Notes: a model not told the origin generated them from the letters alone. Counted from the first letter of the stretch, positions 1 through 23,862 are shown. The stretch: 32,000 nt of DNA from Xanthomonas campestris pv. campestris str. ATCC 33913 (GCF_000007145.1 NC_003902.1:1687436-1719435); one strand, 5' to 3'. Program-made: numbers and translations.

Positions 1-642
1 GACGTGCGGGATGAAGCAGATCAGTGGATCGACAGCCGGAAACTGCATGTGTTGGCGTCCAATCGTGCATGCGAGTTACCGCCGATGCAGGCCAATCGCA
101 GCGATCCACTCGATTGCAGGTTGGTGATTTACGCCAAGGCACGGCAAGGGCGCAAACAGTGCAATCGCCGCTCACCCGCCAAAGTCTCGCGTGCGTCATC
201 GAGTCTGAAGGCCGCAGCGCGCGAGCGCGAGCCTTGGCTCATCGTTGCATCCCCGCAGCTGCAGGCGCCCAGCGCAAAGCAGTTGGTCAATGTGTACGCA
301 CGACGGATGCAGATCGAGCTTGCATTTCGCGATCTGAAATCACATCGCTACGGCCAGGCGCTGGAAGACAGTTTGACCCGACGCGGCGAGCGACTGCAGA
401 TCCTGCTGCTGATCAATACGTTGGCTGCATTCGCCAGCTGGTTGGCGGGGCTGGGATGCGAAGCGACCGGTATCGCCCAGTGGCTGTCTCCTCGCAACAG
501 CACACGCAAGCTTTACTCCACGCTACGCATCGGCCGAGAAGCGCTGGTCAGGCAGTGGCCGATGGAACCCGTCTCACGGTGGATAGGGCGCTTGCGCGCA
601 CTGCCTGCGGCAGTGCGCGAGCAGATGACGCTTACGGTGTAA
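1..642 (+). CDS. IS4-family DDE transposase, C-terminal fragment (5' part lies outside the window)
   Basis: The ORF is open to the window edge. The translation contains the IS4-family Y-x2-R-x3-E-x6-K signature in VYARRMQIELAFRDLK. Confidence 0.75.
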   Translation, partial: DVRDEADQWIDSRKLHVLASNRACELPPMQANRSDPLDCRLVIYAKARQGRKQCNRRSPAKVSRASSSLKAAAREREPWLIVASPQLQAPSAKQLVNVYARRMQIELAFRDLKSHRYGQALEDSLTRRGERLQILLLINTLAAFASWLAGLGCEATGIAQWLSPRNSTRKLYSTLRIGREALVRQWPMEPVSRWIGRLRALPAAVREQMTLTV

Positions 643-778
643 AACGTGGGGATACCTTAGATCCGGAACCATCGTCGGCGTTGCTGATTTGGTTGACTGC
701 ATCGGCCCCTTCGACGCCACTGCCTGGCGCGCACACGCCGACAAACACTGTATTCCCATAGAGCGCGAAGAGCTGGCC

Positions 779-1258
779 ATGCGCTGGAACGTCGCTTGGG
801 CGCTTAGTAGGGCGACTCCACTGGCGCGATCGGTCAGCTACGACCATCCTTCCGGTGCTGTTACGTGGGTCAATCTCGACGATGAGGTTGTGGCCCAACT
901 CCAGCTTGGTGCCAGCCATCTCAAGATTCCTCAGAAGCTGCCGTTAACCCTAGGAACGAACCTCCAGCCTAAGAATCTGCCGGAGCAGCGATTCACACTT
1001 GAAGATGCGGGCGCGGTGCCTATTGGCGTATTGATACCGGTCGCCAGTGATGGCACGTGGTTCTCGCCCGATTTGAAGAGAGGGCGCGGGTACACCATCT
1101 GCGCCAAGGGTGAGGAGATTGTGGTGGAGAGCTATCTAGAAGCTCTCTCGCAACTTCGCCTGATTCCTAAGCCGCGCTGGCGGAGACCAAATGCCGGTGG
1201 CAACTGGGGAATCATGACTGGGGTGAAGTGGGAAGACGCCAGTAAGTTGACAAGCTAA
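779..1258 (+). CDS. Hypothetical protein directly upstream of zorA (the ORF is open from a TTG at 689; the first ATG is at 779)
   Basis: 189-aa open frame on the same strand, ending 19 bp before the zorA start. I recognise no family. The C-terminal motif PRWRRPNAGGNWG is distinctive. Confidence 0.4.
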   Translation: MRWNVAWALSRATPLARSVSYDHPSGAVTWVNLDDEVVAQLQLGASHLKIPQKLPLTLGTNLQPKNLPEQRFTLEDAGAVPIGVLIPVASDGTWFSPDLKRGRGYTICAKGEEIVVESYLEALSQLRLIPKPRWRRPNAGGNWGIMTGVKWEDASKLTS

Positions 1259-1277
1259 TACAGGGGATTTAGAAGAA

Positions 1278-3167
1278 ATGAACGTGCTTTGGATCGCGGC
1301 GACTGGCGATTGGCTACATGCTCTGATTGCGTCGATCATCGCAGTCCTTTTTCTCTGTTTTCTCTTCTTTGTCTTGTTCCGGGCGAGCGCGCTTCTGGTG
1401 TCATTGAAGCGACTCGGTAATGCTGTTCGGCTGCTGACAGGGAAATCGCCCCCCCTCGTCAAGCGGGAACTCAGCAAGCTCTTTGCCAACAGTCGCCTCC
1501 AGCCGAACTGGGCCGAGTACGAGGACACGTTGCATGAGCAGACCGCCAATCAAGGTATTGATCGAGAAATCGTAGCCGTTCGTGCAACCGTCCCCGCAGA
1601 ATCGTTCTTCAATGCGGAGCTGGTGGTTGATAGCACGCTGCACACAGAGTTCTTCAAGCATCTTCCTGGGATTTTTACCGGGCTCGGAATCATCGCGACC
1701 TTCAGTGGGCTCATTGCAGGCTTACAAAGCTTCGACGTCAAGGCGGTAGAGCCGGACGCGCTGAAAGCAAGTCTCGGCGGTCTTTTCGGCCACGTTGGCA
1801 GTGCGTTTCTTCTTTCTGCGGTTGCTATTGGTCTCGCGATGATCTGCACGATCGTCGAAAAAATCCTCTATGCAGCAAACGTGCATGCGATCACGTCGAT
1901 CGCGCTGGCGCTGGATGGTCTTTTCAAGTCTGGTGTCGGCGAGGAATACCTTTCCAAATTGGTGAGGTCTTCTGAAGATGGTGCTGTACAGACAAAGCAG
2001 CTCAAGGAAAGCCTGGTTGAAGATCTGAAGGCGCTTTTGACCAATTTGACCGAGCGGCAAATTGAAGCAACACATCAGCTCTCGAACGAGATTGGTGCAA
2101 GTCTGGAGACGAGCCTACAGGTGCCGCTCCAAAAGATTGCCGACACGGTGCAGCTCGCAAGCCAGGATCAGTCTGCTTCGGCGGGCAAGATGATCGAGAA
2201 CTTGATGGACACCTTCATGGCCCAGATGCGCGACACGATGGGTTCTCAGATGGGAGATCTGAGCGGCATGATGCAGCAAAGTGCCGCATCAATCATGCGC
2301 GTCGAAGAGAGTCTCCGCAGACTTGTAGACGATATGCAGAGCGCCACTCACGCGTCTTCTGAGGGCATCCAGCGCGCAATGGCGGAGCTCCTGTCGTCGC
2401 TCGCATCACATGAGCGCCAGCAATCAGAGACGCTGGGCGGCGCTCAGGTCCAGATGCTGACCCATGTTCAGAGCGCAGTAGAGAGGATGGCATCTGCTCA
2501 GGCCGCTGGCGCGAACCAAGTCGGCGAGGCTGCTGCGGATGCAACGCGTCGAATTGTTGAAGCTTCCGCTGAGGTGCAGAAGGCGGGCGAAGAGTCTTCT
2601 CGCCGAGCAGCAGAGCTTACAGAAAGCATTCACGACGTGACGCTTGAGTCCATTCGTAAACTTGAGAGCGGCGCTGCCCAGGTCGCATCGATGATGGCGG
2701 CGTTGAACGAAGTGGTCGATCGATTGGCGAGAACCAGTGGGTCGCTGGCCGGCCTGCATGAGCAATCTGGACAGCTAGGTTCGAGGTTGGATCAGAGTTC
2801 GACCAGCCTCCGGACCAGTACTGACACGCTAGCTATTGCCTCTCAAGCACTGTCTCAAGCCAGCGTCCGTGTCGAAGGTGTTTCCAGCTTGATGACGACC
2901 GAGGCGAGTGCGCGCGAGGCAACGCTAAAAGATATCCAGCTGGCGCTGAGTAAGGGTCAGGAAGCTGCGCGCGAGTTTGGCGAATATTCGGACATGCTCA
3001 CCGTCAAGCTTGGTGATGCGATGGAGCAATTCGGCTCTAAGACCGGCGCTGTGCTGAACCATCTCATGACTGATTTTGATAAGGAGCTCGGGAACGCGGT
3101 ACTCATGCTGCGCGATATCGTTGAACGTATGTCCCTAATCGCCGCATCGGACGAGCGTAGGGGATAA
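1278..3167 (+). CDS. zorA: ZorA: MotA/ExbB-like membrane channel subunit with a long C-terminal coiled-coil tail (type I Zorya)
   Basis: N-terminal TM helix, then WAEYEDTLHEQ. MotA/TolQ/ExbB-like TM pair around FFKHLPGIFTGLGIIATFSGLIAGL. The remaining ~400 aa are Q/A/S/E/L-rich and helical. A MotB-like gene follows 4 bp downstream. Confidence 0.85.
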   Translation: MNVLWIAATGDWLHALIASIIAVLFLCFLFFVLFRASALLVSLKRLGNAVRLLTGKSPPLVKRELSKLFANSRLQPNWAEYEDTLHEQTANQGIDREIVAVRATVPAESFFNAELVVDSTLHTEFFKHLPGIFTGLGIIATFSGLIAGLQSFDVKAVEPDALKASLGGLFGHVGSAFLLSAVAIGLAMICTIVEKILYAANVHAITSIALALDGLFKSGVGEEYLSKLVRSSEDGAVQTKQLKESLVEDLKALLTNLTERQIEATHQLSNEIGASLETSLQVPLQKIADTVQLASQDQSASAGKMIENLMDTFMAQMRDTMGSQMGDLSGMMQQSAASIMRVEESLRRLVDDMQSATHASSEGIQRAMAELLSSLASHERQQSETLGGAQVQMLTHVQSAVERMASAQAAGANQVGEAAADATRRIVEASAEVQKAGEESSRRAAELTESIHDVTLESIRKLESGAAQVASMMAALNEVVDRLARTSGSLAGLHEQSGQLGSRLDQSSTSLRTSTDTLAIASQALSQASVRVEGVSSLMTTEASAREATLKDIQLALSKGQEAAREFGEYSDMLTVKLGDAMEQFGSKTGAVLNHLMTDFDKELGNAVLMLRDIVERMSLIAASDERRG

Positions 3168-3171
3168 GCAT

Positions 3172-3888
3172 ATGTTTGGGAGCATGGCCCGGGGTCGGCG
3201 CCGGAATAAAGATGATGGAGAGAAGCCATTCTGGATCAGCTATGCAGATTTGATGACGGCGATGATGGTGTTGTTTCTGAGTGCCATGGCGGTCACGATC
3301 GCTGCTGTAACGAGAGTAGTGGAGGGGCCTGCGGAGATCAGAGCACGGGAGATTCAATCGGTCTGTGAGCAATTAGGTCGAGATCTATCGGGCGTATCCG
3401 AAATTCAGATCAACTGCGCCGATCAACGCATTTCCTTCCCAACCGTCGGGACGTTTGGTTTTAATAGCTATCGGTTGCCGGCAGAGGCTGACGGTGCGCT
3501 CGCACAGTTAGTTCCCGCTGTTCTAAATGCTGCTGACGGAGAGCTGGGAAAGAAATGGTTGAAACAGGTCGTCGTGGAGGGATATACCGACACCAAGGGC
3601 GGCTATCTCTACAACCTTCATCTAAGTCTGCAGCGGTCCGAATGGGTGCTTTGCCTCTTGATGGACCCATCAAAGAACAAGAGTCTCGCTCTGAGTGATG
3701 AGCAGCTGTCTCGAGTGCGAAAGTTGTTCCTGGCTGGCGGCGTGTCTTTCAATAACCAGAGAACGACGGCTGATGAGAGTCGCCGAGTCGAGTTGAGAAT
3801 TCAGTTTTACGGCGTTGATGAGCCTCATTCAGCGCATTTGGACACTGGATCAGATTTCATGGCAGGCGCGGATAGGTGCCAGCTCTGA
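3172..3888 (+). CDS. zorB: ZorB: MotB-like TM plug with an OmpA-like peptidoglycan-binding domain (type I Zorya)
   Basis: KPFWISYADLMTAMMVLFL is a MotB-type TM segment with the conserved Asp. The C-terminus has an OmpA-like VVVEGYTDTKG...LSLQRSEWV. Confidence 0.85.
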   Translation: MFGSMARGRRRNKDDGEKPFWISYADLMTAMMVLFLSAMAVTIAAVTRVVEGPAEIRAREIQSVCEQLGRDLSGVSEIQINCADQRISFPTVGTFGFNSYRLPAEADGALAQLVPAVLNAADGELGKKWLKQVVVEGYTDTKGGYLYNLHLSLQRSEWVLCLLMDPSKNKSLALSDEQLSRVRKLFLAGGVSFNNQRTTADESRRVELRIQFYGVDEPHSAHLDTGSDFMAGADRCQL

Positions 3889-5507
3889 TGTTCAGACAAG
3901 TTCTCCAGCGAATGGTGGCGCCGGTGCAGGAATTGCAGGTGAGGCCGGTTCCGCTGAAGCGTCTCAGAGAAGCGGTCAGTGTCATGCGCGAGGAGCTGGG
4001 AGCTGCGCCGACAGGCTTTGATTCACCTCAATTGTTTAAAAAATCGCTGGGTAGACTGCTCAACGAAGGCGCGAATGCTTTGAGTGCGCGGGATGACATG
4101 ATCCTTGCGTCTCAATTTGTTGCGAGCTCGGAACTTCTCTGTGGACAGTCAATCGCTGCCAGGCAAGATCTTAGCGTTCCACTCATCCAGCGGTGGCGAA
4201 AGGGGATTGGAGATTCTTTACTTGGTCCGTTGCTCTGGCGCACTGTCTTCGTCGGATATTTCCTTCTAGGTGAAAGTGCAGAGAGGGAGGTCTACAGAGA
4301 TTTCCTTCAGAAGACGTTGCCGAAGTTGAAGGCCCAGAAGGTTCCGCCCGGATGGCTGCCAACAGTTGAAGAGCATAAGGAGGTATTCGGCCTAAAGCCC
4401 CTCGCGCGCTATGTGACTGAGTGGGCGGCCGGCGATGAGCGTGGATTGGATGCGCTGTCGGATCATGTGGAAATACCCGGTAGCAGTTGGTTCTGGGCCG
4501 AATTCGTGGGCAACGCGCTCGCGAAGTTGGAAGGCATGAACGACATTGAGTTCGAGCGGAGTTCCCTGCGATATCTGAGCCTTTTATATCGATTTCCTAG
4601 TCAGCAGGACGCTGTCCTTGCCGCGTTGGTCGAACGTGCAGCCGGGTCACCGGACAACTTGCTGAATCAGAAGATTCTGGAGTGTGTGGTCGACGCTTGG
4701 GGTAATCCACAGCTTGAGCTAAGCGACCGGTCTCATCGTTGGTCACAGGTGTCGGACGACGCGAGGCAATGGATATGTCGTTGCTTGGCCGAAGAAGACT
4801 TGACTGACTTCTTTGAGTTGATCAAAAGTTCTTCCAAGGCACTAAGCGCCATGGATAAGCGGCGATTCGAGTATTGGAAGCGATTCACCGGGCGAATGCA
4901 GTTCACTAAGCTTGTTTTAGGGCCATCGTTTAGGTCAACGACGAATGCCGACATAGGCCGCTTCATTAAGAAACGAAGAGGGCGCCTGGGATGGTTGGCC
5001 AGCTCAACATCAATGAACATCGCCATGTTGATGAAGCTTGGGGAACATTGGTTTGTCGAGTTCGCGGAGACGGGTAATGCATGCTATGGCTATCAACAAA
5101 TAACGCTGCCGTTCAAGGTTGGCGATAAGACTTTATCGCTTCATCAGCTTAAAGATCAGCGAATAGCAACATACAGGCTTCCACACAGCGGGCCATGGGA
5201 GTCTGAGTTTGACCGAACACTAGCTCGCGTCGGCATCTGGCCCAACGGAGTGCAACAGGGTGGGCGATCGCCGGCAAAGAGAGCGACCAACGCGCCGTCT
5301 GCCATAGCTGACGTTGATCAGCTTCTTCCTTCGTTGCCGGCACACCTTGCGCGGGAGCTTTCATTGGCACGCAAGGCGATTGTCGATAACCGTAATAAAG
5401 GCGGCAGCTACTGGATTGAGCTTGGCTCTAAACCTTCCAGCGAGCTGATTGAGGCAATGAATGTGGCTGGATTCAGATTTGCAGCAAGCCGAGGGTTCTA
5501 TCGATGA
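3876..5507 (+). CDS. zorC: ZorC-like protein (putative EH-signature domain protein)
   Basis: 543-aa ORF in the third position of the operon. The start is either GTG 3876 or, more likely, ATG 3888, which overlaps the zorB stop as TGATG. The size and the GEHWFVEFAETGNACYGY segment fit my memory of ZorC. The call rests mainly on synteny. Confidence 0.7.
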   Translation: MPALMFRQVLQRMVAPVQELQVRPVPLKRLREAVSVMREELGAAPTGFDSPQLFKKSLGRLLNEGANALSARDDMILASQFVASSELLCGQSIAARQDLSVPLIQRWRKGIGDSLLGPLLWRTVFVGYFLLGESAEREVYRDFLQKTLPKLKAQKVPPGWLPTVEEHKEVFGLKPLARYVTEWAAGDERGLDALSDHVEIPGSSWFWAEFVGNALAKLEGMNDIEFERSSLRYLSLLYRFPSQQDAVLAALVERAAGSPDNLLNQKILECVVDAWGNPQLELSDRSHRWSQVSDDARQWICRCLAEEDLTDFFELIKSSSKALSAMDKRRFEYWKRFTGRMQFTKLVLGPSFRSTTNADIGRFIKKRRGRLGWLASSTSMNIAMLMKLGEHWFVEFAETGNACYGYQQITLPFKVGDKTLSLHQLKDQRIATYRLPHSGPWESEFDRTLARVGIWPNGVQQGGRSPAKRATNAPSAIADVDQLLPSLPAHLARELSLARKAIVDNRNKGGSYWIELGSKPSSELIEAMNVAGFRFAASRGFYR

Positions 5508-8500
5508 AGCTTCGCTTCTGGAAAGGAGAAAGCCCCGAGACCATTCCCATGGATGCTCCTGAGTTCTCTGCTGAATCAAGCGGTTGGAAAGGAACGGCAC
5601 AAGAGAAGAGCACTCATCCGGGCGCGATCTATCTCTTGCAGCTTGCCGACGAGAGATTTGCGCTTAAAGATGGAGCTGGGTACCTGATCCCATGGGAGAA
5701 GCTTTATTCGCTTCTTTCCGATAGCGACCACGTATCAAGCTTGCATCTGCTGAAGTTGCCGCAGACCTCTAGGCTACGCCCCGCGATTCGGTCGCACGGG
5801 ACACCAACCGACACAAATTTTCGAGTCACGCTGGAAGCGTGGATCGCGGAAAGTGGCGAGGAGCTTCTGGCTGAACGTCTTGGCGCGGTGTTGACCATGC
5901 CTGGGCAGGATCTGTTGCTGCCGCAGTCAGCTTTTACGCTCCTAGAGGCAATGGCTGAGCTCGCACAGTGCGGTGAAGACTGGGATGCGGACCGCCGTAT
6001 GTTGCAAATGGGCAAGGTCCAAGAGGCCGCCAGGTGGGCCGGGGCGACGATGGATCGCTATTTGGAGCACTCACCGGTCGTTGTCGCTAACAAGCTTGAG
6101 ATCAATTTGAAGCAGCACGAAGCTGCCGAAGCCCAGATCGTAGAGGTTGAGCCACGCCCTATTGGCGCGCCGGAGGGCTGGCTTTCACAATTTGATCGCT
6201 ATCAATCGGTCCGTGGTCGTTATGACGTTACGGATGCCGAAGGCGGCATGAGTCACGTTGTGCTTTCAAGTCAGGTGCGCGAGGTTGGTCAACAGATCAA
6301 ATCGATGCCAGGGCGGCGCTTGGCTGGCAAGCAAGCCGACGCGTTTATGCATAACCCATATGCCGTCCTTGGCGAAGCTGCAGCGCAGGTCATCTCTCCG
6401 GAGCGTTTCGCTGAAGCAAAACGTACGGCCGGCATCGATGAGTGGGAACTTGAGCTCCAGCCTGCGGACGTTGACGGTAGTTGGGATGCAGTGCTGGTTG
6501 ATTCGGTCGGCAAGAGTGAGAGCGTGTTCGTCGGAAGTTTTCATGCTTCCGAATTCGATTCGCTGCTGGAAGAGGCAAGTGGATCTGAGGGACTTGGTGT
6601 TGCCCGATGGAAGAAGCATCGGGTTTTGCTCTCTGGTCTGACACTTGAAAGCCTCGCACGTCTCCGGCAGGCCCACTTCAAGGAGGCGGTTGGCAGCGTG
6701 ATCGGTGTCGAGACGCTTTTTGACCTGGCTCACTACAGCGATCGCGTCGTGGGTTTCGATGGAAAGCCCATCATCGTGCCAAAAGTCCAAGGCAGTTCGC
6801 CCGCTGAAGACTGGATTAAGGGTGCCGGAGAGTTCGTTGCGGTAGATCCTGCTACAGGAACTGCAACGGAAGGGCGCCTTAGCACCAATGATGTTCAGGA
6901 GTTCGGCGAGCGTGTTGATTTAGCCGAGCGTGAGGGCCACATCAATGTTGCAGTCCCCGGGATTGAAAAGGAAATTCCAACGCCCGAAGCACGGGCATGG
7001 ATGAAGGAGCTCACTAAGCCAGCTGGCGAAAAGCGAATTGAGAGCCTAAAGAATCCCGCGCCCGCGGAAAAGCTGTCGCTCAGAATCCTCCACAACATTG
7101 AGGAGCTTGAGTACCCAAGCGAGGAAACTGAGCAGGCGCGAGTGAAGGACGTCTATGAAGCGCCTGCTGCGCTTCGTCCGGAAGTTGCACTGAAAGATCA
7201 CCAGGTCGAAGGCGTCGCTTGGATGCAAGGGCGTATGCGACAGCGAGGTGACGGTGTGCGAGGTGTGTTGCTCGCCGACGATATGGGCCTCGGCAAGACG
7301 CTGCAGGCGCTGACGCTGATGGCTTGGTATCGGCAGACTGCGCCGGCGCCGAAGCCGTGCCTGATCGTGGCCCCCGTATCCCTACTGGAAAATTGGAAAG
7401 CGGAGATCGCCAAATTTCTTGACGGGAGGCAGGGCGCAACACTCACACTCTACGGCGAGCACTTGGCCCTTCACAGGCTGAGCGCACGTGAGATCGGGCC
7501 TGAACTTAGAGAATTGGGCGTCAAGAAAGCTCTTAATCCTGGCTTTGCGCATGGCGCAGCGTTCGTGTTGACGACATACGAGACCTTGCGCGATTACCAG
7601 CTGTCCATGGCGCGGGAGAAGTGGGGTGTACTCGTTTGCGACGAAGCCCAGAAGATTAAGACACCATCTGCCATGGTGACTCGATCTGCCAAGGCGATGC
7701 AGGCTGATTTCAAAATAGCTTGTACGGGTACGCCAGTGGAGAACTCACTTGCGGATCTCTGGTGTCTCTTCGATTTCTTCCAGCCAGGTTTGCTCGACTC
7801 CCTGACTAAGTTCACCAAGGTGTTCAGGCAACAGATTGAGCTCAGGTCTGAGGGGCACGAGCAAAAGGTCGAGGTATTGCGCGAGCAAATTTCGCCCTGG
7901 GTCCTTCGGCGGATGAAGGCTGAAGTTGCAGATCTCAAGCCGAAAACTGAATTGCCCTGCGAGCTCGCGATGTCAGCCAAACAGCGCGGTCTTTATGCCG
8001 CGGCTGCCAGACGATTCCGCGAAACAGTTGACTCTGGCGAGGGTGGCGATACTGCTGCTTTAAGCCTGCTCCATCAACTCAGGCAGATTTGCGCCAATCC
8101 TCTTGCTGCCGCGGATGATCGGTCCGAATTTCTGTCGCTAGACGAACATCTACGTCATTCACCAAAGTTGGCATGGCTGATCGAAAAGCTACAAGAGATT
8201 CAGGCCACAGGCGAAAAGGTCATTGTCTTCACGGAATTCCGCGACATCCAGCGGCTGATCCAGCGCGCCATTGCCAGCCGGTTGAGCTATCAAGCTTCCA
8301 TCGTCAATGGGAGCACGAGCGTGGAAGCCGGGGCAGATGACTCGCGCCAGATAATTATTGACGCTTTCCAGGCCAAGCCGGATTTTGGAGTGATCGTGCT
8401 CTCCACAACCGCCGTGGGCTTTGGCGTGAACATCCAGGCCGCAAATCATGTCATCCATTTCACCCGTCCCTGGAACCCGGCTAAGGAAGACCAAGCGACA

Positions 8501-8701
8501 GATCGCGCTTACCGAATTGGGCAGGAAAAGGAGGTTTTCGTTTATTACCCAACCGTGTTGGGGGATGGCTTTGAGAGTTTTGAAGAACGTGTTGCCAAGC
8601 GGCTTGCGACGAAGCGTAAGTTATCGAACGATATGTTGGCCCCGGAGCAGGGGCTTACTCTGGAAGAGTTCTCGGATTTGTCTCTCGGCTTTTCCGAGTA
8701 A
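5504..8701 (+). CDS. zorD: ZorD: large SNF2-family helicase (type I Zorya)
   Basis: ATGA overlap with the zorC stop. SNF2 motifs are present: DDMGLGKT (~7285), DEAQ (~7640), TGTPVENSL, and WNPAKEDQATDRAYRIGQ. A ~560-aa N-terminal region is uncharacterised. Confidence 0.85.
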   Translation: MKLRFWKGESPETIPMDAPEFSAESSGWKGTAQEKSTHPGAIYLLQLADERFALKDGAGYLIPWEKLYSLLSDSDHVSSLHLLKLPQTSRLRPAIRSHGTPTDTNFRVTLEAWIAESGEELLAERLGAVLTMPGQDLLLPQSAFTLLEAMAELAQCGEDWDADRRMLQMGKVQEAARWAGATMDRYLEHSPVVVANKLEINLKQHEAAEAQIVEVEPRPIGAPEGWLSQFDRYQSVRGRYDVTDAEGGMSHVVLSSQVREVGQQIKSMPGRRLAGKQADAFMHNPYAVLGEAAAQVISPERFAEAKRTAGIDEWELELQPADVDGSWDAVLVDSVGKSESVFVGSFHASEFDSLLEEASGSEGLGVARWKKHRVLLSGLTLESLARLRQAHFKEAVGSVIGVETLFDLAHYSDRVVGFDGKPIIVPKVQGSSPAEDWIKGAGEFVAVDPATGTATEGRLSTNDVQEFGERVDLAEREGHINVAVPGIEKEIPTPEARAWMKELTKPAGEKRIESLKNPAPAEKLSLRILHNIEELEYPSEETEQARVKDVYEAPAALRPEVALKDHQVEGVAWMQGRMRQRGDGVRGVLLADDMGLGKTLQALTLMAWYRQTAPAPKPCLIVAPVSLLENWKAEIAKFLDGRQGATLTLYGEHLALHRLSAREIGPELRELGVKKALNPGFAHGAAFVLTTYETLRDYQLSMAREKWGVLVCDEAQKIKTPSAMVTRSAKAMQADFKIACTGTPVENSLADLWCLFDFFQPGLLDSLTKFTKVFRQQIELRSEGHEQKVEVLREQISPWVLRRMKAEVADLKPKTELPCELAMSAKQRGLYAAAARRFRETVDSGEGGDTAALSLLHQLRQICANPLAAADDRSEFLSLDEHLRHSPKLAWLIEKLQEIQATGEKVIVFTEFRDIQRLIQRAIASRLSYQASIVNGSTSVEAGADDSRQIIIDAFQAKPDFGVIVLSTTAVGFGVNIQAANHVIHFTRPWNPAKEDQATDRAYRIGQEKEVFVYYPTVLGDGFESFEERVAKRLATKRKLSNDMLAPEQGLTLEEFSDLSLGFSE

Positions 8702-8717
8702 GAGATTGATTGGATAA

Positions 8718-9018
8718 ATGAGGTTTTTAATGGTTGCCCTTGTAAAGCTCGGTGATGCGGCGCTTACTGCAATCGGGAGCATCCTTCCCGCAGGAAAAAT
8801 TTTCCTCAATTCGTCTAGTAATAGTTTGAAAGGCGTAGAAAAGTGGGCGCCCGCCGACAGTTTTTGCTTAATGCTTGCGGCATTGTCCTTCTCGGTCGAC
8901 GGTAAAGCTTCGAAGGAGGAGCAGGATTACCTTGAAAAAAGTATGCAACTGCCCCAGAGGAGGTTAGGGCGAAGGTGGTAGAAGTGCTGTCCCGGCCTGA
9001 TACTTTGGTCGCCCTGCG
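8718..9018 (+). pseudogene. Disrupted ORF downstream of zorD (weak TerB/DjlA_N-like guess), frameshifted in an A6 run and then cut by IS insertion
   Basis: The 87-aa frame stops at 8982. The frame starting at 8942 reads YATAPEEVRAKVVEVLSRPDTLVALR up to the IS5 end, and one extra A in the 8935-8940 run would join the two frames. Confidence 0.45.
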
Positions 9019-10536
9019 TAATTAGTCGCCCCTGAAAAACCCCCAATCACCCAACGCCCGCAAGGCCTTGATGTCTGCAGTGGCGTGCCAGAACTACCAG
9101 TTTTCGCTACGCTGAAGGCTGGTTTCTGGCAATTTCCACTCATGCATACACGCCGTCCTGCTGCCGAGCACATGCCTGCCGAGGAGTTGTTTCGTTCGCG
9201 CCTGGAGAACCAGATCGATCTGCGGCATCCGCTGGCGCAGCTGAGCCAACGGATGCCGTGGACGGCGTTGGAGCAAGCACTTTCATCGCGCTTGCCGGCC
9301 ACCCAGGCTGGTGGCGGTCGGCCGGCATTGCCGGTGCGGCTGATCGCCGGTTTGCTCTACCTCAAACACGCCTACGACCTGTCCGATGAGGCGGTGTGCG
9401 AGCGTTGGCTGGAAAATCCGTATTGGCAGTTTTTCACTGGCGAGGTCGTGTTCCAGACGCGCTTGCCGTGCGATGCCAGCTCGCTGACGCGCTGGCGTCA
9501 GCGGCTTGACGAAGCGGGGATGGAAGAGTTGCTGGCACACACCATCAACGCTGCACATGCCATGCAGGCGGTGGACGCACGCGAGTTGTCGCGGGTGATC
9601 GTGGACACCACGGTGCAGGAAAAGGCGATTGCCTATCCGACCGATAGTCGGTTGCTGGAGGTGGCACGCAAGAAACTGGTGCTGCTGGCCAAGCGTTACG
9701 GCATCGGGTTGCGGCAGAGCTACGCACGGCAAGGTCCGGCCCTGAGCCGCAAGGCGGGCCGCTATGCGCATGCACGCCAGTTCAAGCGCATGCAGCGCGT
9801 GCTGCGACGTCAACGCACGGTCTTGGGGCGGGTGTTGCGCGATATCGCGCGCAAGCTGGACCAGGTGGAACCCGGCGTGCGCGAGCGCATCGCGGTCTGG
9901 CTGGAACGTGCGCAACGGCTGTACACGCAGCGTCCGAAGGACAAACAAAAACTGTACGCATTGCATGCCCCGGAAGTGGAATGCATCGGTAAGGGCAAGG
10001 CGCGTCAAGCGTACGAATTCGGCGTCAAGGTCGGCATTGCGGTCACCGCCTGCAAGGGATTGGTCGTGGGTGCGCGTAGCTTCCCGGGCAACCCGTACGA
10101 CGGCGACACCTTGGCCGAGCAGCTGGAGCAGACACGCGGGTTGCTGCAGGATCTGAGCGTAGAACCGACGGTGGCGATCGTGGACCTGGGCTATCGCGGG
10201 CGCGAGGTCGATGGCGTGCAGGTGCTCCATCGTGGCAAGGCCAAGACGCTGACGCGACGGCAATGGCGCTGGATCAAACGACGGCAGGCGGTGGAACCGG
10301 TGATCGGACATCTGAAAGACGACTGCAGGTTGCGTCGCTGCAGGCTGAAAGGTGCACAAGGCGATGCGCTGCACGTACTCGGCTGCGCCGCCGGCTACAA
10401 CCTGCGCTGGCTGCTGCGCTGGATCGCGTTTTTGCGTGCCTGGATGCGGGCGATGGGATGGCCATCCTTTAGCGCCGTGCCGCTGTCGCCGATGACACTT
10501 GGTGCTTGAAGGGGGTTTTTCAGGGGCGACTAATTA
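9019..10536 (+). mobile_element. IS5-family insertion sequence, apparently intact
   Basis: Perfect terminal inverted repeats: ATTAGTCGCCCCTGAAAAACCCCC at 9021-9044, with its reverse complement at 10511-10534. The palindrome TAATTA at both ends (9019-9024, 10531-10536) could be an IR extension or a target duplication. Confidence 0.8.
9085..10509 (+). CDS. IS5-family DDE transposase
   Basis: 474-aa ORF filling the IR-bounded element. The real start may be the internal Met of MPAEELFRSRLENQIDLRHPL. Confidence 0.85.
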   Translation: MPELPVFATLKAGFWQFPLMHTRRPAAEHMPAEELFRSRLENQIDLRHPLAQLSQRMPWTALEQALSSRLPATQAGGGRPALPVRLIAGLLYLKHAYDLSDEAVCERWLENPYWQFFTGEVVFQTRLPCDASSLTRWRQRLDEAGMEELLAHTINAAHAMQAVDARELSRVIVDTTVQEKAIAYPTDSRLLEVARKKLVLLAKRYGIGLRQSYARQGPALSRKAGRYAHARQFKRMQRVLRRQRTVLGRVLRDIARKLDQVEPGVRERIAVWLERAQRLYTQRPKDKQKLYALHAPEVECIGKGKARQAYEFGVKVGIAVTACKGLVVGARSFPGNPYDGDTLAEQLEQTRGLLQDLSVEPTVAIVDLGYRGREVDGVQVLHRGKAKTLTRRQWRWIKRRQAVEPVIGHLKDDCRLRRCRLKGAQGDALHVLGCAAGYNLRWLLRWIAFLRAWMRAMGWPSFSAVPLSPMTLGA

Positions 10537-10599: not shown

Positions 10600-11475
10600 T
10601 TACTGATAAAGCCCGGGGTTGAAGGGTACTGCGTTGTTGCCGGTTTGTGCTCGGTGGTTGGAGGCAAACTGCGCTGGCGGGATGCGACCACAGCTGCTGT
10701 GCGGACGTACCTCGTTGAAGTCACGCCGCCAATCGGCGATGACCTCGCGAGCCTGGATCAGCGACGTGAACCAGTGTTCGTTGAGACATTCGTCGCGGAA
10801 CTTGCCGTTGAAGCTCTCGATGTAGCCGTTCTGCATGGGTTTGCCGGGTTCGATCAGGATGTGTTCGATGCCACGCTGCTGTGCCCAAGTGATGAAGGCG
10901 CGGCTGGTGAACTCCGGGCCGTTGTCCGTGCGCACCGCGCGGGGATAGCCGCGGAAGCAGGCGATCTGCTCCAGCACACGCACCACGTAAGCCCCGCTGA
11001 TACCATGGTCCACCGCGATGTCCACGCATTCATGGGTGAAGTCGTCGGCGACGGTCAGGCATTTGATGCGGCGGCCACTGGCCAACTGATCAAAGACGAA
11101 GTCCATGCTGATTACCTCGTTGGGATGCCGCGCTGGCCGTAACGGCTGCCGCTGTGCCGCCGGGAACTTGGCCTTCTTGCGCCGGCGCACGCTCAGCTTC
11201 GCCTCGCGGTACAGACGGTAGATCTTCTTATGGTTCACCTGCGGAAACTCCGGGCGCAGCAGGTCGTGCAGGCGGCGATAGCCGAAGCGGCGACGCGCCT
11301 GCGCCAGTTCCACCAGTCTGGCCGACAGGGTTTGCGTCGCCGGCGTGGGTGTCGGCGCGTGGCGGAAAGCATCGCGGGAGATCCCCGCAAGGCGACAAGC
11401 CCGGCGCTCGCTGATCGACGTCAGCTCGCACATGCGCCGGATTGCCTCGCGCTTGCGTTGCGGGGCTAGCGTTTT
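10600..11475 (-). CDS. IS3-family transposase OrfB (DDE integrase core), expressed as OrfAB by -1 frameshift
   Basis: rve-type core (ISMDFVFD ... [11 protein letters not shown] ... [14 protein letters not shown]). The -1 frame overlaps the orfA end at GGGGTAAAAC, with an A-AAA slippery site at 11472-11475. Confidence 0.85.
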
Positions 11476-11732
11476 ACCCCGAACCCGACCTTCAGCGCCT
11501 CGATGTCCAGGTGCGCCTCGGCCAGCAACCGCTTGAGGCGGTTGTTCTCCTGCTCCAGCTCCTTCAGGCGCTTCGCGTCTTCGGCCTCCATGCCGCCGTA
11601 CTTGGCCCGCCACTGGTAGAAGCTGGCCGGGCTGAAACCGTGCTGGCGGCACAGCTCAGCCACCGCCATCCCGGCATCCGCCTGCTTGATGAATCCGATG
11701 ATCTGCTCGGTGGTGAAACGACTCTTCTTCAT
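11466..11732 (-). CDS. IS3-family transposase OrfA (HTH)
   Basis: [47 protein letters not shown] is a typical IS3 OrfA, with a leucine-zipper-like end. Confidence 0.85.
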
Positions 11733-12864: not shown

Positions 12865-14155
12865 CTACTCACTTGTGCTGAGCTGACGCTCGTCAAGAAT
12901 GGCTTTGAGCATGTTGGCTGAGAGCAGCTCTCTGAACAATGTATAGAATTGCCAGGCACACCACAGTGCGAAGACAAAACCCAATAGTGATGCAGCTCTC
13001 TGCTTAGGCACCTCTTTTGCCAAATGCGATTTTAGAGCGGGATCCTGCCAAACTTGGCAGAGAATTTTAAGGTCTCGTGGGTCGAATGTAGGTGGGATGA
13101 CTTGTTTGTTGGCGGTGTTGCACTGTTCAACTGTCAAAGTGTCGCTTCTAACGGAGAAAAGCGTTTGGGTTCTTGCCTCAGTTTCAGAGGCAAAGATACT
13201 AGTGTGTGTTTCTTTCAAAGTCACTAACAAACTGTCGTTGGCGGCGATTGCACCAAGTATTGCGGCGAGAACAATAAGCACTGCAACAGCGATGAAGGGT
13301 AAAATCAGCCACCACTTAGAATGAACCCGCTTCGGGTGGATAACATGATTTTTGAGGTCAAAAGCCCATCCTGCATGTCCAATGAGTTTGAGCGGAATAT
13401 TGTGTAAGTCCGAAAATCCAATAAGCGCTTTTGCATCTTTTAGCGTTTGGACGCCGATCTGGTGTGCCATTCGAAACGCAGCCAAAGCAGAATGGTCTGC
13501 CAAATTCTTGCGAATGACTGTGTCTTCAATATCGTCTTTGCTGAGCCAGTCCTGCAAACTCTGCCTTTTTGCTCGCGTTGCTAGGATAGTGCTCGATGGC
13601 TTCCAAGAAGCTCCGCACATCATCGGCTTTATAATTTTCCACAGGCTTGTCACCGACCAACGCAACGAACAAGCCCAAGCTGTATTCGGTGTCGAAGATG
13701 TTGGTCGCACTTCGACCGACTCGTTTCATCTCGCGAATATGGATGGCTGCGCGTTCAGAAAATAACGGCCCAGCTTTCTTCGCCACTTCGGTGGAAGAGG
13801 GCAGCGGCAGATTTTTCAGCGCTTCGAGCAGCCGAGCATGATCCTCAGGTCCGTTGACAGAGAGCTCCACGCCACCCACCTTGATGGTGTAGGGCCGAGC
13901 TTCGTTTCCTTGCAATGCGGCCAAAGCCTGGCTCAGCAAATCGTCCTTCATGCTGCTTGCCCCCCGCCGCATCCGATCGAATGCTTCCGAGAGTGCCACA
14001 GCAGTTCGTGCTACGGCCAGACGGGCAGCATCACCAAGGGTCAAGCGAACTGGACGGACAAGGTAGCGCGAGCCAATGAGGGCTTGCAGGTCGGTCGGGA
14101 CGAAGAAGCGCACATAGAGCCCAGCAGGGCGGCGCAGAAAATAAGGCTTCGGCAC
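12865..14155 (-). pseudogene. Decayed tyrosine-integrase gene of the Zorya island. N-terminal and SAM-like parts only, frameshifted, with the C-terminus replaced by an unrelated two-TM segment.
   Basis: 13526-14155 encodes PKPYFLRRPAGLYVRFFVPTDLQ... (integrase N-terminal type). The frame switches near 13540-13550 into ORF 12865-13710. No R..HxxR..Y catalytic domain follows. Instead there are hydrophobic stretches WWLILPFIAVAVLIVLAAILGAIA and LLGFVFALWCAW. Confidence 0.6.
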
Positions 14156-14261: not shown

Positions 14262-14295
14262 ATGGTGGAGGTGGGCGGAATCGAACCGCCGTCCG
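14262..14295 (-). repeat. att repeat: 34-bp duplicate of the ssrA 3' end (T-arm and acceptor 3' strand, CCA)
   Basis: ATGGTGGAGGTGGGCGGAATCGAACCGCCGTCCG is identical to 23465-23498. Confidence 0.85.
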
Positions 14296-14395
14296 AAGGC
14301 GCTAAATAGCGTTCGCTATCGTCCGTCGCTGTACTTTAAGCCACTGATTCTAAAGAAATACTATTCGCTGCCGTCCACTGGTGTTCGTCACGGTG

Positions 14396-14415
14396 TATCC
14401 GTACCATATCCGTAC
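14396..14415 (+). promoter_or_regulatory. Two direct TATCCGTAC repeats (candidate arm-type integrase binding sites, attR side)
   Basis: TATCCGTAC at 14396 and 14407 (11-bp period), about 100 bp inside the att core. The same motif recurs at the opposite end of the element (23388, 23401). Confidence 0.35.
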
Positions 14416-14439
14416 GGACCAGGTGAGCGATTAAAGCTG

Positions 14440-15978: not shown

Positions 15979-16043
15979 GCACCCAAAAAAAACGCCACGG
16001 GGCCAGCCGTGGCGCTCTGATCAAACCGAACCGCAAAGTTCAC

Positions 16044-16355: not shown

Positions 16356-16358
16356 CCG

Positions 16359-22511: not shown

Positions 22512-22513
22512 GC

Positions 22514-23432: not shown

Positions 23433-23433
23433 A

Positions 23434-23464: not shown

Positions 23465-23498
23465 ATGGTGGAGGTGGGCGGAATCGAACCGCCGTCCG
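23465..23498 (-). repeat. att repeat within the functional ssrA 3' end
   Basis: Identical to 14262-14295. Confidence 0.85.
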
Positions 23499-23862
23499 GA
23501 AGCACTCCATCCCCAGCACTACATGCTTATCCCTCCGTTAGATCTCGTTCCCAGGCAGCACGGCGGGCAAAGCGCACCTGAAAACCAGCCTGCTTGATCT
23601 AACCGATAGCTGACAGGCAGCCACTACCGGCGGTTCCGTGATAATGACCCTACATCTACGAGCACGGGCACAAGTAGTTTCGGGGGTTCGCCTTAGGCGG
23701 CTGTAGAACTACAACTAAAGCCAATTAAGCGGCGATAGCGAAGTCCGAACCGTAGTTGTCGTCGTTGGCAACTAAAAGTTTGCTGCTGGATTAACGAGGA
23801 AAGCTGCCCCCTCGGCATGCGCCAAGCGACTTCGCGACCCCCGTCGAAACCAGTGCACCCCC
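23466..23862 (-). ncRNA. ssrA: tmRNA (transfer-messenger RNA)
   Basis: The reverse complement starts GGGGGUGCACUGGUUUCGACGGGGG and ends GGUUCGAUUCCGCCCACCUCCACCA. The acceptor stem has a G3:U pair. The tag reading frame at 23769-23725 encodes ANDDNYGSDFAIAA followed by a stop. Confidence 0.9.

What the first reader, a model, noticed from the sequence alone, without database searches (positions are those of the whole stretch)
1278..8701. Complete four-gene MotAB-like / SNF2 helicase operon: a type I Zorya (zorABCD) anti-phage defence system
Four same-strand genes are tightly packed. The zorA-zorB gap is 4 bp, zorB/zorC overlap as TGATG, and zorC/zorD overlap as ATGA. Gene 1 has a MotA/ExbB-type TM core but carries about 400 extra residues of Q/A/S/E-rich helix. 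Gene 2 is a MotB-type TM with the conserved Asp (YADLMTAM) plus an OmpA-like domain. Gene 3 is 543 aa with no enzymatic motif I can read. Gene 4 has every SNF2 motif (GLGKT, DEAQ, TGTPVEN, WNP..QA.DRAYRIGQ). No flagellar, Tol or TonB genes are nearby, and the locus sits in an AT-richer, IS-rich island at the tmRNA integration hotspot. This architecture matches what is published for Zorya type I, in which a ZorAB proton-driven envelope sensor with a long cytoplasmic tail acts together with ZorC and the ZorD helicase/nuclease against invading DNA. ZorA here (629 aa) seems shorter than the E. coli model protein as I remember it. That would be relevant if tail length matters for signalling.
Basis: partly seen in the sequence, partly recalled or inferred. 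Interest (0 to 1): 0.85.

Follow-up and report, generated by a model that had tools for sequence, protein, structure and literature searches.

The report
Type I Zorya anti-phage operon
This is an intact four-gene type I Zorya anti-phage defence operon of Xanthomonas campestris that standard models recognise and public genomes already annotate, so the finding is correct but ordinary; the one new-looking detail is a conserved ASCH-domain partner gene just upstream, which an insertion sequence has broken in this strain.

Summary
Four same-strand ORFs sit at 1278-8701: zorA, zorB, zorC and zorD, joined by a 4-bp gap, a TGATG junction and an ATGA junction. Each matches a PADLOC type I Zorya model end to end. 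In the PDB, each hits E. coli ZorA, ZorB, ZorC or ZorD first. Almost every residue that mutagenesis showed to be essential in the E. coli system is conserved. dN/dS against the Pseudoxanthomonas spadix copy is 0.04-0.11. ZorA is 100% identical to an NCBI protein named [quoted passage not shown], so the system is already known.

The ZorA tail is about 100 residues shorter than in E. coli (412 vs about 508 aa). This length is fixed across a whole clade (407-414 aa in 96 of 111 homologues), so it is a natural length class.

The locus lies in the distal of two tandem islands at the tmRNA gene.

One thing appears unreported. A two-domain ASCH protein gene sits directly next to type I Zorya in 19 of 23 informative metagenome loci and in most close relatives. 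Here an IS cuts it (remnant 660-1258). Whether it is a fifth Zorya component is untested.

The parts
1..659 (+). Right-hand part of an IS (DDE_Tnp_1-type transposase, C-terminal ORF 4-642) inserted into the ASCH-domain gene
   Evidence: Homology to strains with the intact gene (L004, L005) begins exactly at window 660. L002 and L003 carry a 404-aa DDE_Tnp_1 transposase at this place.
660..1258 (+). 3' remnant (codons about 41-238) of a two-domain ASCH-domain gene that normally ends 19 bp before zorA. The N-terminal G-x-K-x-x-E-x-R segment is separated from it by the IS.
   Evidence: tblastn gives 100% identity to residues 41-238 of the intact 238-aa gene of L004. Pfam ASCH hits the intact protein. 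AF2 and Foldseek show an ASCH fold.
1278..3167 (+). zorA: MotA-like motor subunit (motor 1-217, three TM helices and a beta-hairpin) with a 412-aa helical tail
   Evidence: PADLOC ZorA1 PDLC00599, 1099.7 bits, residues 1-628. PDB 8qyd_A E 1e-68. AF2 secondary structure. Conserved E80, D83, T141, S180, I138, P130 and D213.
3172..3888 (+). zorB: MotB-like subunit with the TM Asp26 and an OmpA-type peptidoglycan-binding domain
   Evidence: PADLOC ZorB1 PDLC00611, 305.6 bits. Pfam MotB_plug and OmpA. PDB 8qyd_F E 1e-67. D26, Y147, N148, L151, R155 and four Cys conserved.
3888..5507 (+). zorC: EH-signature DNA-binding protein (539 aa from ATG 3888; an in-frame GTG at 3876 would give 543 aa)
   Evidence: PADLOC ZorC1 PDLC00616, 592.8 bits. 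Pfam EH_Signature, 93.1 bits. PDB 8r68 E 7e-41. D323, R326, W330, E391, H433 and W437 conserved.
5504..8701 (+). zorD: Snf2-family ATPase and nuclease effector (1065 aa)
   Evidence: PADLOC ZorD1 PDLC00632, 1243.1 bits. Pfam SNF2-rel_dom and Helicase_C. PDB 8qy7 E 2e-202 over residues 41-1059. E634 and DEAQ 713-716 conserved.
8718..8981 (+). Small ORF (87 aa) of unknown function just after zorD. It is called in other X. campestris contigs but is not conserved in other genera.
   Evidence: 83-aa gene in L005 and L008. No Pfam or PADLOC hit.
9019..10536 (+). IS5-type insertion sequence (1518 bp, perfect 26-bp terminal inverted repeats, transposase 9085-10509)
   Evidence: Inverted repeat I1. Pfam DUF772 and DDE_Tnp_1.
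10600..11652 (-). IS3-type transposase (rve integrase core)
   Evidence: Pfam rve, rve_3 and HTH_21.
13526..14155 (-). Integrase N-terminal fragment next to the displaced tmRNA 3' end. It marks the proximal end of the Zorya-bearing island.
   Evidence: Weak DUF6538 hit (21.4 bits, below the cut-off of 27). Position 107 bp from the repeat at 14262.
14262..14303 (.). Direct-repeat copy of the tmRNA 3' end. It is the boundary between the Zorya island (to the left) and the second island 14304-23465 (integrase 14440-15588).
   Evidence: Repeat D1, 42 nt, 93% identical to 23465-23506. 27-mer with 0 matches expected by chance.
23466..23862 (-). tmRNA (ssrA) gene, the integration site of the tandem islands. 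smpB lies at 26680-27522 on the minus strand.
   Evidence: ARAGORN. Rfam RF00023, 195 bits. Pfam SmpB.

Best explanation
Region 1278-8701 is an intact type I Zorya (zorABCD) anti-phage system of Xanthomonas campestris pv. campestris. It is carried in the distal of two genomic islands integrated in tandem at the 3' end of the tmRNA gene.

By homology with the E. coli system, the mechanism is as follows. ZorA and ZorB form a 5:2 proton-driven inner-membrane motor. The dimeric ZorB peptidoglycan-binding domain anchors the motor to the cell wall when phage entry disturbs the envelope. Proton flow through ZorB Asp26 then turns the ZorA pentamer and its long cytoplasmic coiled-coil tail. This recruits ZorC, an EH-signature dsDNA-binding protein, and ZorD, an autoinhibited Snf2 ATPase with nuclease activity, and they degrade the incoming phage DNA locally without killing the cell.

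Shown here: the gene set and order, end-to-end homology, conservation of the residues proved essential in E. coli, and purifying selection. Inferred: the assembly, the rotation, the recruitment and the protection itself.

The tail belongs to a natural shorter length class. It has 412 residues, roughly 56-61 nm if fully extended, against about 70 nm measured for E. coli.
For: - PADLOC: full-length hits to ZorA1, ZorB1, ZorC1 and ZorD1.
- Pfam: EH_Signature, SNF2-rel_dom, Helicase_C, OmpA and MotB_plug.
- PDB: best hits are EcZorA/B 8qyd, ZorC 8r68 and ZorD 8qy7.
- Pairwise identity to E. coli E24377A ZorA/B/C/D is 33, 49, 25 and 38.5%.
- Residues tested by Hu et al. (PMC11946911) are conserved. 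ZorB has D26, Y147/N148/L151/R155 and all four disulfide Cys. ZorA has E80 and D83 (Ca site), T141 and S180 (ion filter), I138, P130 and D213. ZorC has E391 and H433 plus D323, R326, W330 and W437. ZorD has E634 and DEAQ 713-716.
- dN/dS against P. spadix is 0.081, 0.041, 0.110 and 0.100 for zorA-D, with identical lengths.
- ZorA is 100% identical to the NCBI protein 'anti-phage ZorAB system protein ZorA [Xanthomonas campestris]'. The same four-gene block is present in Xcc 8004 (CP000050), CP029483 and CP155999.
- The AF2 model shows three TM helices, the Zorya beta-hairpin and an essentially all-helical stretch at 220-628.
- Tail length is 407-414 aa in 96 of 111 homologues down to 35% identity.
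- No other motility, Tol or Ton genes are nearby.
Against: - There is no experimental evidence for this locus. No paper in the searchable library links Zorya to X. campestris experimentally.
- The NCBIfam E. coli-type equivalog models hit below their curated cut-offs: ZorA1 295 vs 750, ZorB1 291 vs 400, ZorC 191 vs 490, ZorD 918 vs 1500. Only the ZorA_3 subfamily model passes (284 vs 250). This is therefore a different clade from the characterised system.
- The ZorB residues R49 and R52, which lock the E. coli motor, are not conserved. There is one Arg at 48 and a 3-residue deletion.
- The gene immediately upstream is split by an IS, and no sigma-70-like promoter was found in 500-9100. Expression in this strain is therefore unknown.
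- Pfam finds no classical nuclease domain in ZorD. The nuclease role rests on the E. coli biochemistry.
Confidence: 0.93

Rival explanations
1. The ancestral unit of this clade is a five-gene operon, ASCH-domain gene plus zorABCD. The window holds a degraded version in which the first gene has been knocked out by an IS. The ASCH protein would read or process modified bases in phage DNA and so widen or tune what ZorC and ZorD can attack. This strain would then have a narrower Zorya. This refines the best explanation and does not contradict it.
For: - The intact 238-aa gene ends 19 bp before zorA in L004 and L005.
- The same gene is directly upstream of zorA (overlap to 55 bp) in L011-L014, L096, L097 and L099.
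- In the metagenome scan, 19 of 23 two-domain homologues with informative flanks adjoin a Zorya gene: 16 upstream of zorA and 3 just downstream of zorD. These include Zorya clades only 21-26% identical in ZorA.
- ASCH and ZorA identities to the Xcc proteins co-vary (Spearman 0.90, n=19).
- At least 21 contig-length coincidences link the two homologue lists.
- The protein has an ASCH fold with the invariant G-x-K-x-x-E-x-R segment and invariant H69, Y100 and H102.
- Its C-terminal domain is elsewhere fused to UDG-superfamily and RNase_T domains.
- There is a precedent: the ASCH-like BapA deglucosylates phage DNA for the Brig3 glycosylase (PMC13160076).
Against: - zorABCD stays intact and under purifying selection where the ASCH gene is broken (Xcc 8004-type strains), reduced to a C-terminal remnant (P. 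spadix L001; L051) or absent (Thermomonas carbonis L015; L098; E. coli L010).
- Four homologues sit beside type I R-M or Druantia III with no Zorya within the flanks (L030, L035, L036, L082). It may therefore be an independent single-gene defence module that merely favours the same islands.
- PADLOC has no model for it.
- No biochemical function is known.
Confidence: 0.35
2. The four ORFs are intact but the system is silent or non-functional in this strain. The IS insertion 620 bp upstream would have cut the operon off from its promoter or removed a required partner.
For: The IS right end is at 659, inside the upstream co-directional gene. No sigma-70-like promoter match exists anywhere in 500-9100, against 4.0 expected by chance. 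Only 19 bp separate the upstream gene from zorA.
Against: All four ORFs are identical in length to the P. spadix copies, with dN/dS 0.04-0.11. ZorA is 100% identical across at least 20 contigs, both with and without the IS. This argues that the insertion is recent or tolerated. IS ends often carry outward promoters (general knowledge, not tested). The promoter scan is a crude consensus search in a high-GC organism.
Confidence: 0.15
3. The locus is not a defence system. It would be a MotAB-like stator with an Snf2 helicase serving another role, such as pilus regulation, or part of a Dpd 7-deazaguanine DNA-modification system.
For: ZorD also hits the PADLOC DpdE model PDLC02854 (684.8 bits, residues 41-1056) and, weakly, the NCBIfam pilus-regulating Snf2 helicase model (195 bits vs cut-off 1100).
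Against: The ZorD models score far higher (1243 bits). None of the window ORFs scanned against PADLOC hit any other dpd model. Genes 1-3 hit only Zorya models. The EH-signature gene between the motor and the helicase is the hallmark of type I Zorya. The locus sits in a mobile island.
Confidence: 0.02

Closest known systems
E. coli type I Zorya (EcZorI of NCTC 9026; the same system in E24377A; structures 8qyd, 8r68, 8qy7; Hu et al., PMC11946911)
   Same: Same four genes in the same order and on the same strand, with tight or overlapping junctions. Same domain set. Almost all residues shown essential by mutagenesis are conserved. Both lie in mobile islands next to a tRNA-type gene. The E. coli E24377A copy lies about 3.8 kb from a tRNA-Thr gene, and the P. 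spadix copy also sits near tRNA-Thr.
   Different: - Only 25-49% identical and below the NCBIfam equivalog cut-offs.
- The ZorA tail is about 100 residues shorter, with about 80 of them missing from the middle of the tail.
- The ZorB R49/R52 lock residues are not conserved.
- The clade usually carries an ASCH-domain gene upstream, which the E. coli locus lacks.
PADLOC-DB type I Zorya sub-family models PDLC00599, PDLC00611, PDLC00616 and PDLC00632
   Same: End-to-end matches with matching lengths: a ZorA profile of 631 positions against 629 aa, ZorB 240 vs 238, ZorC 575 vs 543 and ZorD 1101 vs 1065. This sub-family was therefore already in the 2023 database.
   Different: None of substance. The models do not include the ASCH-domain neighbour.
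Shewanella sp. ANA-3 type I ZorAB (8vvn; Mariano et al., PMC11890865)
   Same: 5:2 motor with a long ZorA C-terminal extension. It is detectable by sequence (ZorA E 1.7e-16, ZorB E 1.3e-5).
   Different: Much more distant. It coordinates sodium at the polar ring. The Xcc ZorA instead keeps the Thr/Ser filter of the E. coli proton-type motor.
MotAB, ExbBD and TolQR 5:2 ion-driven motors
   Same: A MotB-type TM helix with the invariant Asp, an OmpA-like peptidoglycan-binding domain and a MotA-like TM core.
   Different: The 412-aa coiled-coil tail, the Zorya beta-hairpin, the absence of flagellar, Ton or Tol partner genes, and coupling to EH-signature and Snf2 genes.
Brig3-BapA (DNA glycosylase plus ASCH-like deglucosylase; PMC13160076), as an analogue for the upstream ASCH gene only
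   Same: An ASCH-fold accessory protein encoded in an operon with a DNA-attacking anti-phage effector. In addition, the C-terminal domain of the Zorya-linked protein is elsewhere fused to UDG-superfamily domains.
   Different: BapA has two beta-barrels, whereas this protein has one ASCH barrel plus an unrelated 75-aa alpha/beta domain. The activity is unknown.

Membership tests
Type I Zorya (zorABCD) | ZorA: MotA/ExbB-like membrane motor subunit with a long C-terminal helical tail | tested here: met
   PADLOC ZorA1, 1099.7 bits, residues 1-628. Precomputed Pfam PF28082 ZorA-like_t1. PDB 8qyd_A. AF2 shows 3 TM helices, a beta-hairpin and a helix over 220-628.
Type I Zorya (zorABCD) | ZorB: MotB-like TM helix with the essential Asp, plus a peptidoglycan-binding domain with its PG-binding residues and disulfides | tested here: met
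   D26, Y147, N148, L151, R155 and Cys 65, 82, 161, 236 align with E. coli D26, Y151, N152, L155, R159 and Cys 68, 86, 165, 240. Pfam OmpA and MotB_plug.
Type I Zorya (zorABCD) | ZorC: EH-signature domain with the Glu/His pair | tested here: met
   Pfam PF15611, 93.1 bits (cut-off 27.5). E391 and H433 align with E. coli E400 and H443, and the D/R/W/W network is conserved.
Type I Zorya (zorABCD) | ZorD: Snf2-family ATPase with a DEAQ box and the ribose-contacting Glu | tested here: met
   PADLOC ZorD1, 1243 bits. PDB 8qy7 E 2e-202. DEAQ 713-716 and E634.
Type I Zorya (zorABCD) | Canonical co-directional order zorA-zorB-zorC-zorD as one compact operon | tested here: met
   A 4-bp gap and two overlapping junctions. 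The same order occurs in 15 or more related loci.
Type I Zorya (zorABCD) | Confers resistance to phage, dependent on proton flow, the tail and the ZorC/ZorD active sites | not testable with these tools
   Needs plaque assays with point mutants. No published test of the Xanthomonas system was found.
E. coli-type ZorA1/ZorB1/ZorC/ZorD equivalogs (NCBIfam NF041794, NF041788, NF041789, NF041790) | Score at or above the curated whole-protein cut-off | tested here: not met
   Scores are 294.9 vs 750, 291 vs 400, 190.8 vs 490 and 917.9 vs 1500. Only the broader subfamily model NF033916 (ZorA_3) passes, at 284 vs 250. The locus is a Zorya I of a different clade and not an equivalog of the E. coli proteins.
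Dpd (7-deazaguanine DNA modification/restriction) | DpdE helicase together with dpdA, dpdB, dpdC and other dpd genes | tested here: not met
   ZorD cross-hits one DpdE model (684.8 bits), but the ZorD models score higher. None of the window ORFs scanned against PADLOC hit another dpd model.
Flagellar stator, Tol-Pal or Ton motor | MotAB-like pair encoded with flagellar, Tol or TonB partners, with no long tail | tested here: not met
   No such partners were found among the window ORFs scanned. ZorA carries a 412-aa tail.
ASCH superfamily (upstream gene only) | PUA-like beta-barrel with the N-terminal G-x-K-x-x-E-x-R segment (motif recalled from the ASCH literature, not checked here against a reference) | tested here: met
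   For the intact orthologue: Pfam ASCH, 34.6 bits. Foldseek to TTHA0113, ZmASCH and TRIP4 ASCH, E 5e-11 to 1e-5. G17, K19, E22 and R24 are invariant or nearly so in 26-45 sequences. In the window itself this segment is cut off by the IS.

The most novel reading that the evidence does not exclude
The two-domain ASCH protein is a genuine, so far undescribed accessory component of a large part of type I Zorya. It consists of an ASCH barrel, a linker and a 75-aa C-terminal module that is also found on UDG-like and DEDDh-exonuclease proteins. Under this reading it recognises or strips modifications on phage DNA so that ZorC and ZorD can act. Natural knock-outs such as the IS insertion in this window would then change the phage range of the system.
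Probability: 0.3. Interest if true: 0.6.

Novelty: already known. Interest (0 to 1): 0.3.

Why it matters
As a Zorya locus this adds little. The system type, its structure and its mechanism are published. This sub-family is in PADLOC, and NCBI already names the protein.

Two things give it modest value.

First, it is a natural short-tail type I Zorya. The tail length is fixed to within a few residues across a clade that has diverged to 35% identity. That supports the published idea that tail length is functionally set, and it offers a ready-made comparison partner for the 70-nm E. coli tail.

Second, X. campestris strains exist both with and without an IS in the conserved ASCH-domain gene that precedes zorA. 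This is a natural experiment on whether that gene is a fifth Zorya component. If it is, the textbook four-gene definition of type I Zorya would need an optional modified-DNA-handling module. Defence-finder models would then need to include it.

Tried and rejected
1. Sigma-70 promoter and terminator scan of 500-9100. It found no promoter-like site and no more terminator-like sites than in shuffled sequence. This says nothing about how the operon is transcribed.
2. Search for a third long copy of the 42-nt tmRNA repeat in the window and in L004. None was found. Only a 13-nt terminal copy turned up, at L004 8932-8944 at the GC break. I take it as the probable distal island end. It lies outside the window and is short (E 0.015).
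3. Identifying the C-terminal domain of the ASCH protein. A PDB profile search gave only spurious alpha-repeat hits, and Pfam gave nothing. Foldseek of the whole model was dominated by the ASCH domain.
4. PADLOC on the other island ORFs found no further defence system in the window.
5. The genome-contig scan with ZorC returned a single locus (P. spadix), because the peptide patterns came from one sequence. The scan could not be repeated.
6. Literature searches for Zorya with X. campestris, ASCH, PUA or EVE found no paper linking them.
7. Hydrophobic periodicity of the tail is about 3.63-3.7 in both Xcc and E. coli, but with weak power. I draw no conclusion about bundle geometry.
8. The Dpd and pilus-Snf2 readings were considered and rejected.


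Full report
**1. The observation**

The window has four co-directional ORFs at 1278-3167 (629 aa), 3172-3888 (238 aa), 3876/3888-5507 and 5504-8701 (1065 aa).

Reading the junctions directly gives:
- a 4-bp gap between genes 1 and 2;
- TGATG between genes 2 and 3, if gene 3 starts at ATG 3888;
- ATGA between genes 3 and 4.

Public gene calls use the ATG and give 539 aa.

GC is 0.53-0.57 over the operon and 0.62-0.71 in the core genome part of the window.

**2. What it is**

| Protein | PADLOC model | Score | Residues matched |
|---|---|---|---|
| ZorA | ZorA1 PDLC00599 | 1099.7 bits | 1-628 of a 631-position profile |
| ZorB | ZorB1 PDLC00611 | 305.6 bits | 1-228 of 238 |
| ZorC | ZorC1 PDLC00616 | 592.8 bits | 27-543 of 543 |
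| ZorD | ZorD1 PDLC00632 | 1243.1 bits | 28-1059 of 1065 |

Pfam adds MotB_plug plus OmpA for ZorB, EH_Signature for ZorC, and SNF2-rel_dom, Helicase_C and ResIII for ZorD.

Against the PDB, the top hits are the E. coli Zorya structures: ZorA and ZorB 8qyd, ZorC 8r68 and ZorD 8qy7 (E 1e-68, 1e-67, 7e-41 and 2e-202).

I fetched the reference type I locus of E. coli E24377A and aligned the proteins. Identities are 33, 49, 25 and 38.5% for ZorA-D.

The NCBIfam equivalog models, which are tuned to the E. coli clade, hit but fall below their cut-offs. Only the ZorA_3 subfamily model passes. This is therefore a bona fide type I Zorya of a different clade, and that clade is already represented in PADLOC-DB.

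**3. Functional residues**

Hu et al. (PMC11946911) identified essential residues by mutagenesis. Mapped through the alignment:
- **ZorB:** D26, the peptidoglycan-binding Y147, N148, L151 and R155, and all four disulfide cysteines are conserved.
- **ZorA:** the Ca-site acids (E80, D83), the ion filter (T141, S180), I138, P130 and D213 are conserved. Y220 becomes F216, but that contact is made by the main chain.
- **ZorC:** E391 and H433 are conserved, together with the D323/R326/W330/W437 network.
- **ZorD:** E634 and DEAQ 713-716 are conserved.

The differences are ZorB R49/R52, the periplasmic 'lock' salt bridges, which are replaced by a single R48 next to a 3-residue deletion, and ZorA P126T.

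Against the Pseudoxanthomonas spadix copy (L001), all four genes have identical lengths. Their dN/dS values are 0.081, 0.041, 0.110 and 0.100. The genes are therefore under strong purifying selection.

**4. The tail**

The AF2 model of ZorA has a confident motor (pLDDT 73-90 over residues 1-217). It shows TM helices at 12-51, 129-151 and 159-215 and the Zorya beta-hairpin at 85-103. An almost uninterrupted helix follows from 220 to 628. As expected for a monomer model of a pentameric bundle, this part has low confidence and folds back on itself.

The tail is 412 aa (A 13, S 12, L 11, E 9, Q 8%; one Pro). E. coli has about 508 aa and a measured tail of about 70 nm. By simple scaling, this tail would be roughly 56-61 nm (inference). 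About 80 of the roughly 100 missing residues map to the middle of the tail (Xcc 401-560). The proximal tail is as conserved as the motor.

The shorter tail is not a peculiarity of this locus. Measured from the GVGEEYL motif to the C-terminus, the tail is 407-414 aa in 96 of 111 homologues, down to about 35% identity. Other clades sit at 445, about 509-519 and 582 aa. PADLOC ZorA1 profiles span 487-727 positions.

The tight conservation of length fits the published view that tail length matters.

**5. Provenance**

ZorA is 100% identical to an NCBI protein named 'anti-phage ZorAB system protein ZorA [Xanthomonas campestris]'. The same block is in Xcc 8004 (CP000050), CP029483 and CP155999, and in many draft assemblies. 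The window is 99.95% identical to CP029483 over 13 kb. No paper in the library tests or discusses the Xanthomonas campestris system.

**6. Genomic setting**

- The tmRNA gene is at 23466-23862 on the minus strand. smpB, a ratA-like gene and recN lie beyond it.
- A 42-nt copy of the tmRNA 3' end lies at 14262-14303. It delimits a first island at 14304-23465 carrying an integrase (14440-15588), a Toprim-type 1187-aa protein and a Mor-like protein.
- Zorya lies beyond that repeat, in a second, tandem island. That island starts with an integrase fragment (13526-14155, minus strand). It also carries a DUF6216 gene, an IS3-type and an IS5-type element (9019-10536), the small ORF 8718-8981, zorDCBA and the ASCH gene.
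- In the IS-free strain L004, a 13-nt copy of the very end of tmRNA (TGGTGGAGGTGGG) lies about 330 bp upstream of the ASCH gene. It sits exactly where GC falls from 0.65 to 0.55 and the sequence turns AT-rich. This is probably the distal end of the Zorya island, and it is outside the window.

The 'tmRNA hotspot island' reading is supported, with this two-island refinement. In P. spadix the homologous operon is near a tRNA-Thr gene, as is the E. coli one. PADLOC finds no other defence system in the window.

**7. The upstream gene**

The ORF remnant at 660-1258 is the last 198 codons of a 238-aa gene. That gene is intact in L004 and L005 and ends 19 bp before zorA. An IS whose right end is at 659 cuts it at about codon 40.

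*The protein.* It has an N-terminal ASCH domain (Pfam 34.6 bits). Foldseek matches it to TTHA0113 (E 5e-11), ZmASCH and the dsDNA-binding TRIP4 ASCH domain. G17, K19, E22, R24, H69, Y100 and H102 are invariant or nearly so. A disordered linker follows, then a conserved 75-aa alpha/beta C-terminal domain with a W-R-R-P-N-x-x-G-N-W-G-I motif that matches no Pfam or PDB family.

*Linkage in close relatives.* Among loci whose ZorA is at least 40% identical to this one, the gene is:
- intact and directly upstream of zorA in 13 (L004/5, L011/12, L013/14, L016, L017, L019-L022, L096, L097, L099);
- reduced to a C-terminal remnant in 2 (L001, L051);
- absent in 2 (L015, L098).

*Linkage in metagenomes.* In a scan seeded with the ASCH family, 19 of 23 two-domain homologues with informative flanks adjoin a Zorya gene. 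Sixteen are upstream of zorA and three just downstream of zorD. These include Zorya clades only 21-26% identical in ZorA. Four sit instead beside type I R-M or Druantia III.

*Co-variation.* ASCH and ZorA identities co-vary (Spearman 0.90, n = 19; the loci are not independent).

*The C-terminal domain elsewhere.* It has 464 representatives. It is always C-terminal, and it also occurs on UDG-superfamily and RNase_T-type proteins.

*What is known.* PADLOC has no model for this protein. Neither the two main Zorya papers nor any paper in the library links ASCH or PUA domains to Zorya. The nearest precedent is BapA, an ASCH-like deglucosylase that prepares phage DNA for the Brig3 glycosylase.

*My reading, which is inference.* This is either an optional fifth Zorya component handling modified phage DNA, or an independent small defence gene that habitually travels with Zorya. 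It is clearly dispensable for keeping zorABCD intact, because the operon persists under purifying selection where the gene is lost.

**8. Mechanism**

- *Shown here:* a complete, conserved zorABCD gene set with the catalytic and structural residues in place.
- *Inferred from the E. coli work:* a ZorA5B2 proton-driven motor is anchored to peptidoglycan after envelope perturbation. Rotation of the tail then recruits ZorC (dsDNA binding) and ZorD (ATP-dependent nuclease), which degrade the incoming DNA without abortive infection.
- *Unknown for this strain:* expression. The IS upstream and the absence of any recognisable promoter leave this open.

**9. Verdict**

The system is already known and annotated, so it is of low surprise. 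The residual interest lies in two points: the clade-fixed shorter tail, and the apparently unreported ASCH-domain partner gene, for which X. campestris strains provide natural with/without variants.

Noticed in passing
window 660-1258 (remnant); intact copies at L004 9265-9981 and L005 3821-4537: A two-domain ASCH protein gene is directly adjacent to type I Zorya. It has an ASCH barrel, a linker and a novel 75-aa C-terminal domain. It is intact in 13 of 17 close loci, with remnants in 2 more, and adjoins Zorya in 19 of 23 informative metagenome loci. Here an IS disrupts it. It is not in PADLOC or in the Zorya literature searched.
   Followed up: yes
window 1019-1255 (C-terminal domain of the ASCH protein): This 75-aa domain has 464 representatives. 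It is always C-terminal. It is fused to ASCH, UDG-superfamily or RNase_T exonuclease domains, or to an unannotated N-terminal domain of about 240 aa. It has no Pfam or PDB family.
   Followed up: partly
window 1278-3167 and homologues P0001-P0120: ZorA tail length falls into discrete classes: 407-414, 445, about 509-519 and 582 aa from the GVGEEYL motif. It is held to within a few residues inside the 410 class despite divergence to 35% identity. The steps between classes are roughly 35 and 63-64 residues.
   Followed up: partly
window 14262-14303 and 23465-23506; L004 8932-8944: Two tandem islands lie at the tmRNA 3' end. A 42-nt repeat bounds the proximal island. Only a 13-nt terminal copy at the GC break marks the probable far end of the Zorya island, which suggests two different integrases with different crossover cores.
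   Followed up: partly
window 14304-23465: The proximal island carries an integrase (14440-15588), a 1187-aa protein with weak, sub-threshold Pfam hits to Toprim_3 and Herpes_ori_bp (16359-19922) that may be a primase or replication protein, and a Mor-like regulator (22172-22996). This content resembles a P4-like or satellite-type element. No PADLOC defence hits.
   Followed up: no
window 9019-10536 vs L002 17742-19260: The IS5-type element, which has perfect 26-bp terminal inverted repeats, sits at the same site but in the opposite orientation in Xcc 8004 compared with the window and CP029483/CP155999. This could be inversion between its own repeats, independent insertion or an assembly difference.
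   Followed up: no
window 5504-8701: One PADLOC 'DpdE' model (PDLC02854) matches ZorD almost end to end (684.8 bits, residues 41-1056). That model is therefore ZorD-like and could cause cross-annotation between the Dpd and Zorya helicases.
   Followed up: no
L013, L014, L015, L098, L099, L030, L032, L035, L036; L010: Type I R-M genes (hsdR, hsdM, hsdS) lie immediately next to type I Zorya in many unrelated loci, including E. coli E24377A. In several loci a sigma-54-activator-like AAA+ gene is part of that R-M cluster.
   Followed up: no
L001 7157-7333; L051 1369-1593: In P. spadix and in a related metagenome contig, only the C-terminal domain of the ASCH gene survives upstream of an intact zorA. 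This is a second, independent route of loss besides the IS insertion in X. campestris.
   Followed up: partly
window 3172-3888 (ZorB residues 46-52): The periplasmic 'lock' residues R49 and R52 of E. coli ZorB are not conserved. There is a single R48 and a 3-residue deletion. The ZorA partner E164 is Asp160. The resting-state brake may therefore differ in this clade.
   Followed up: no
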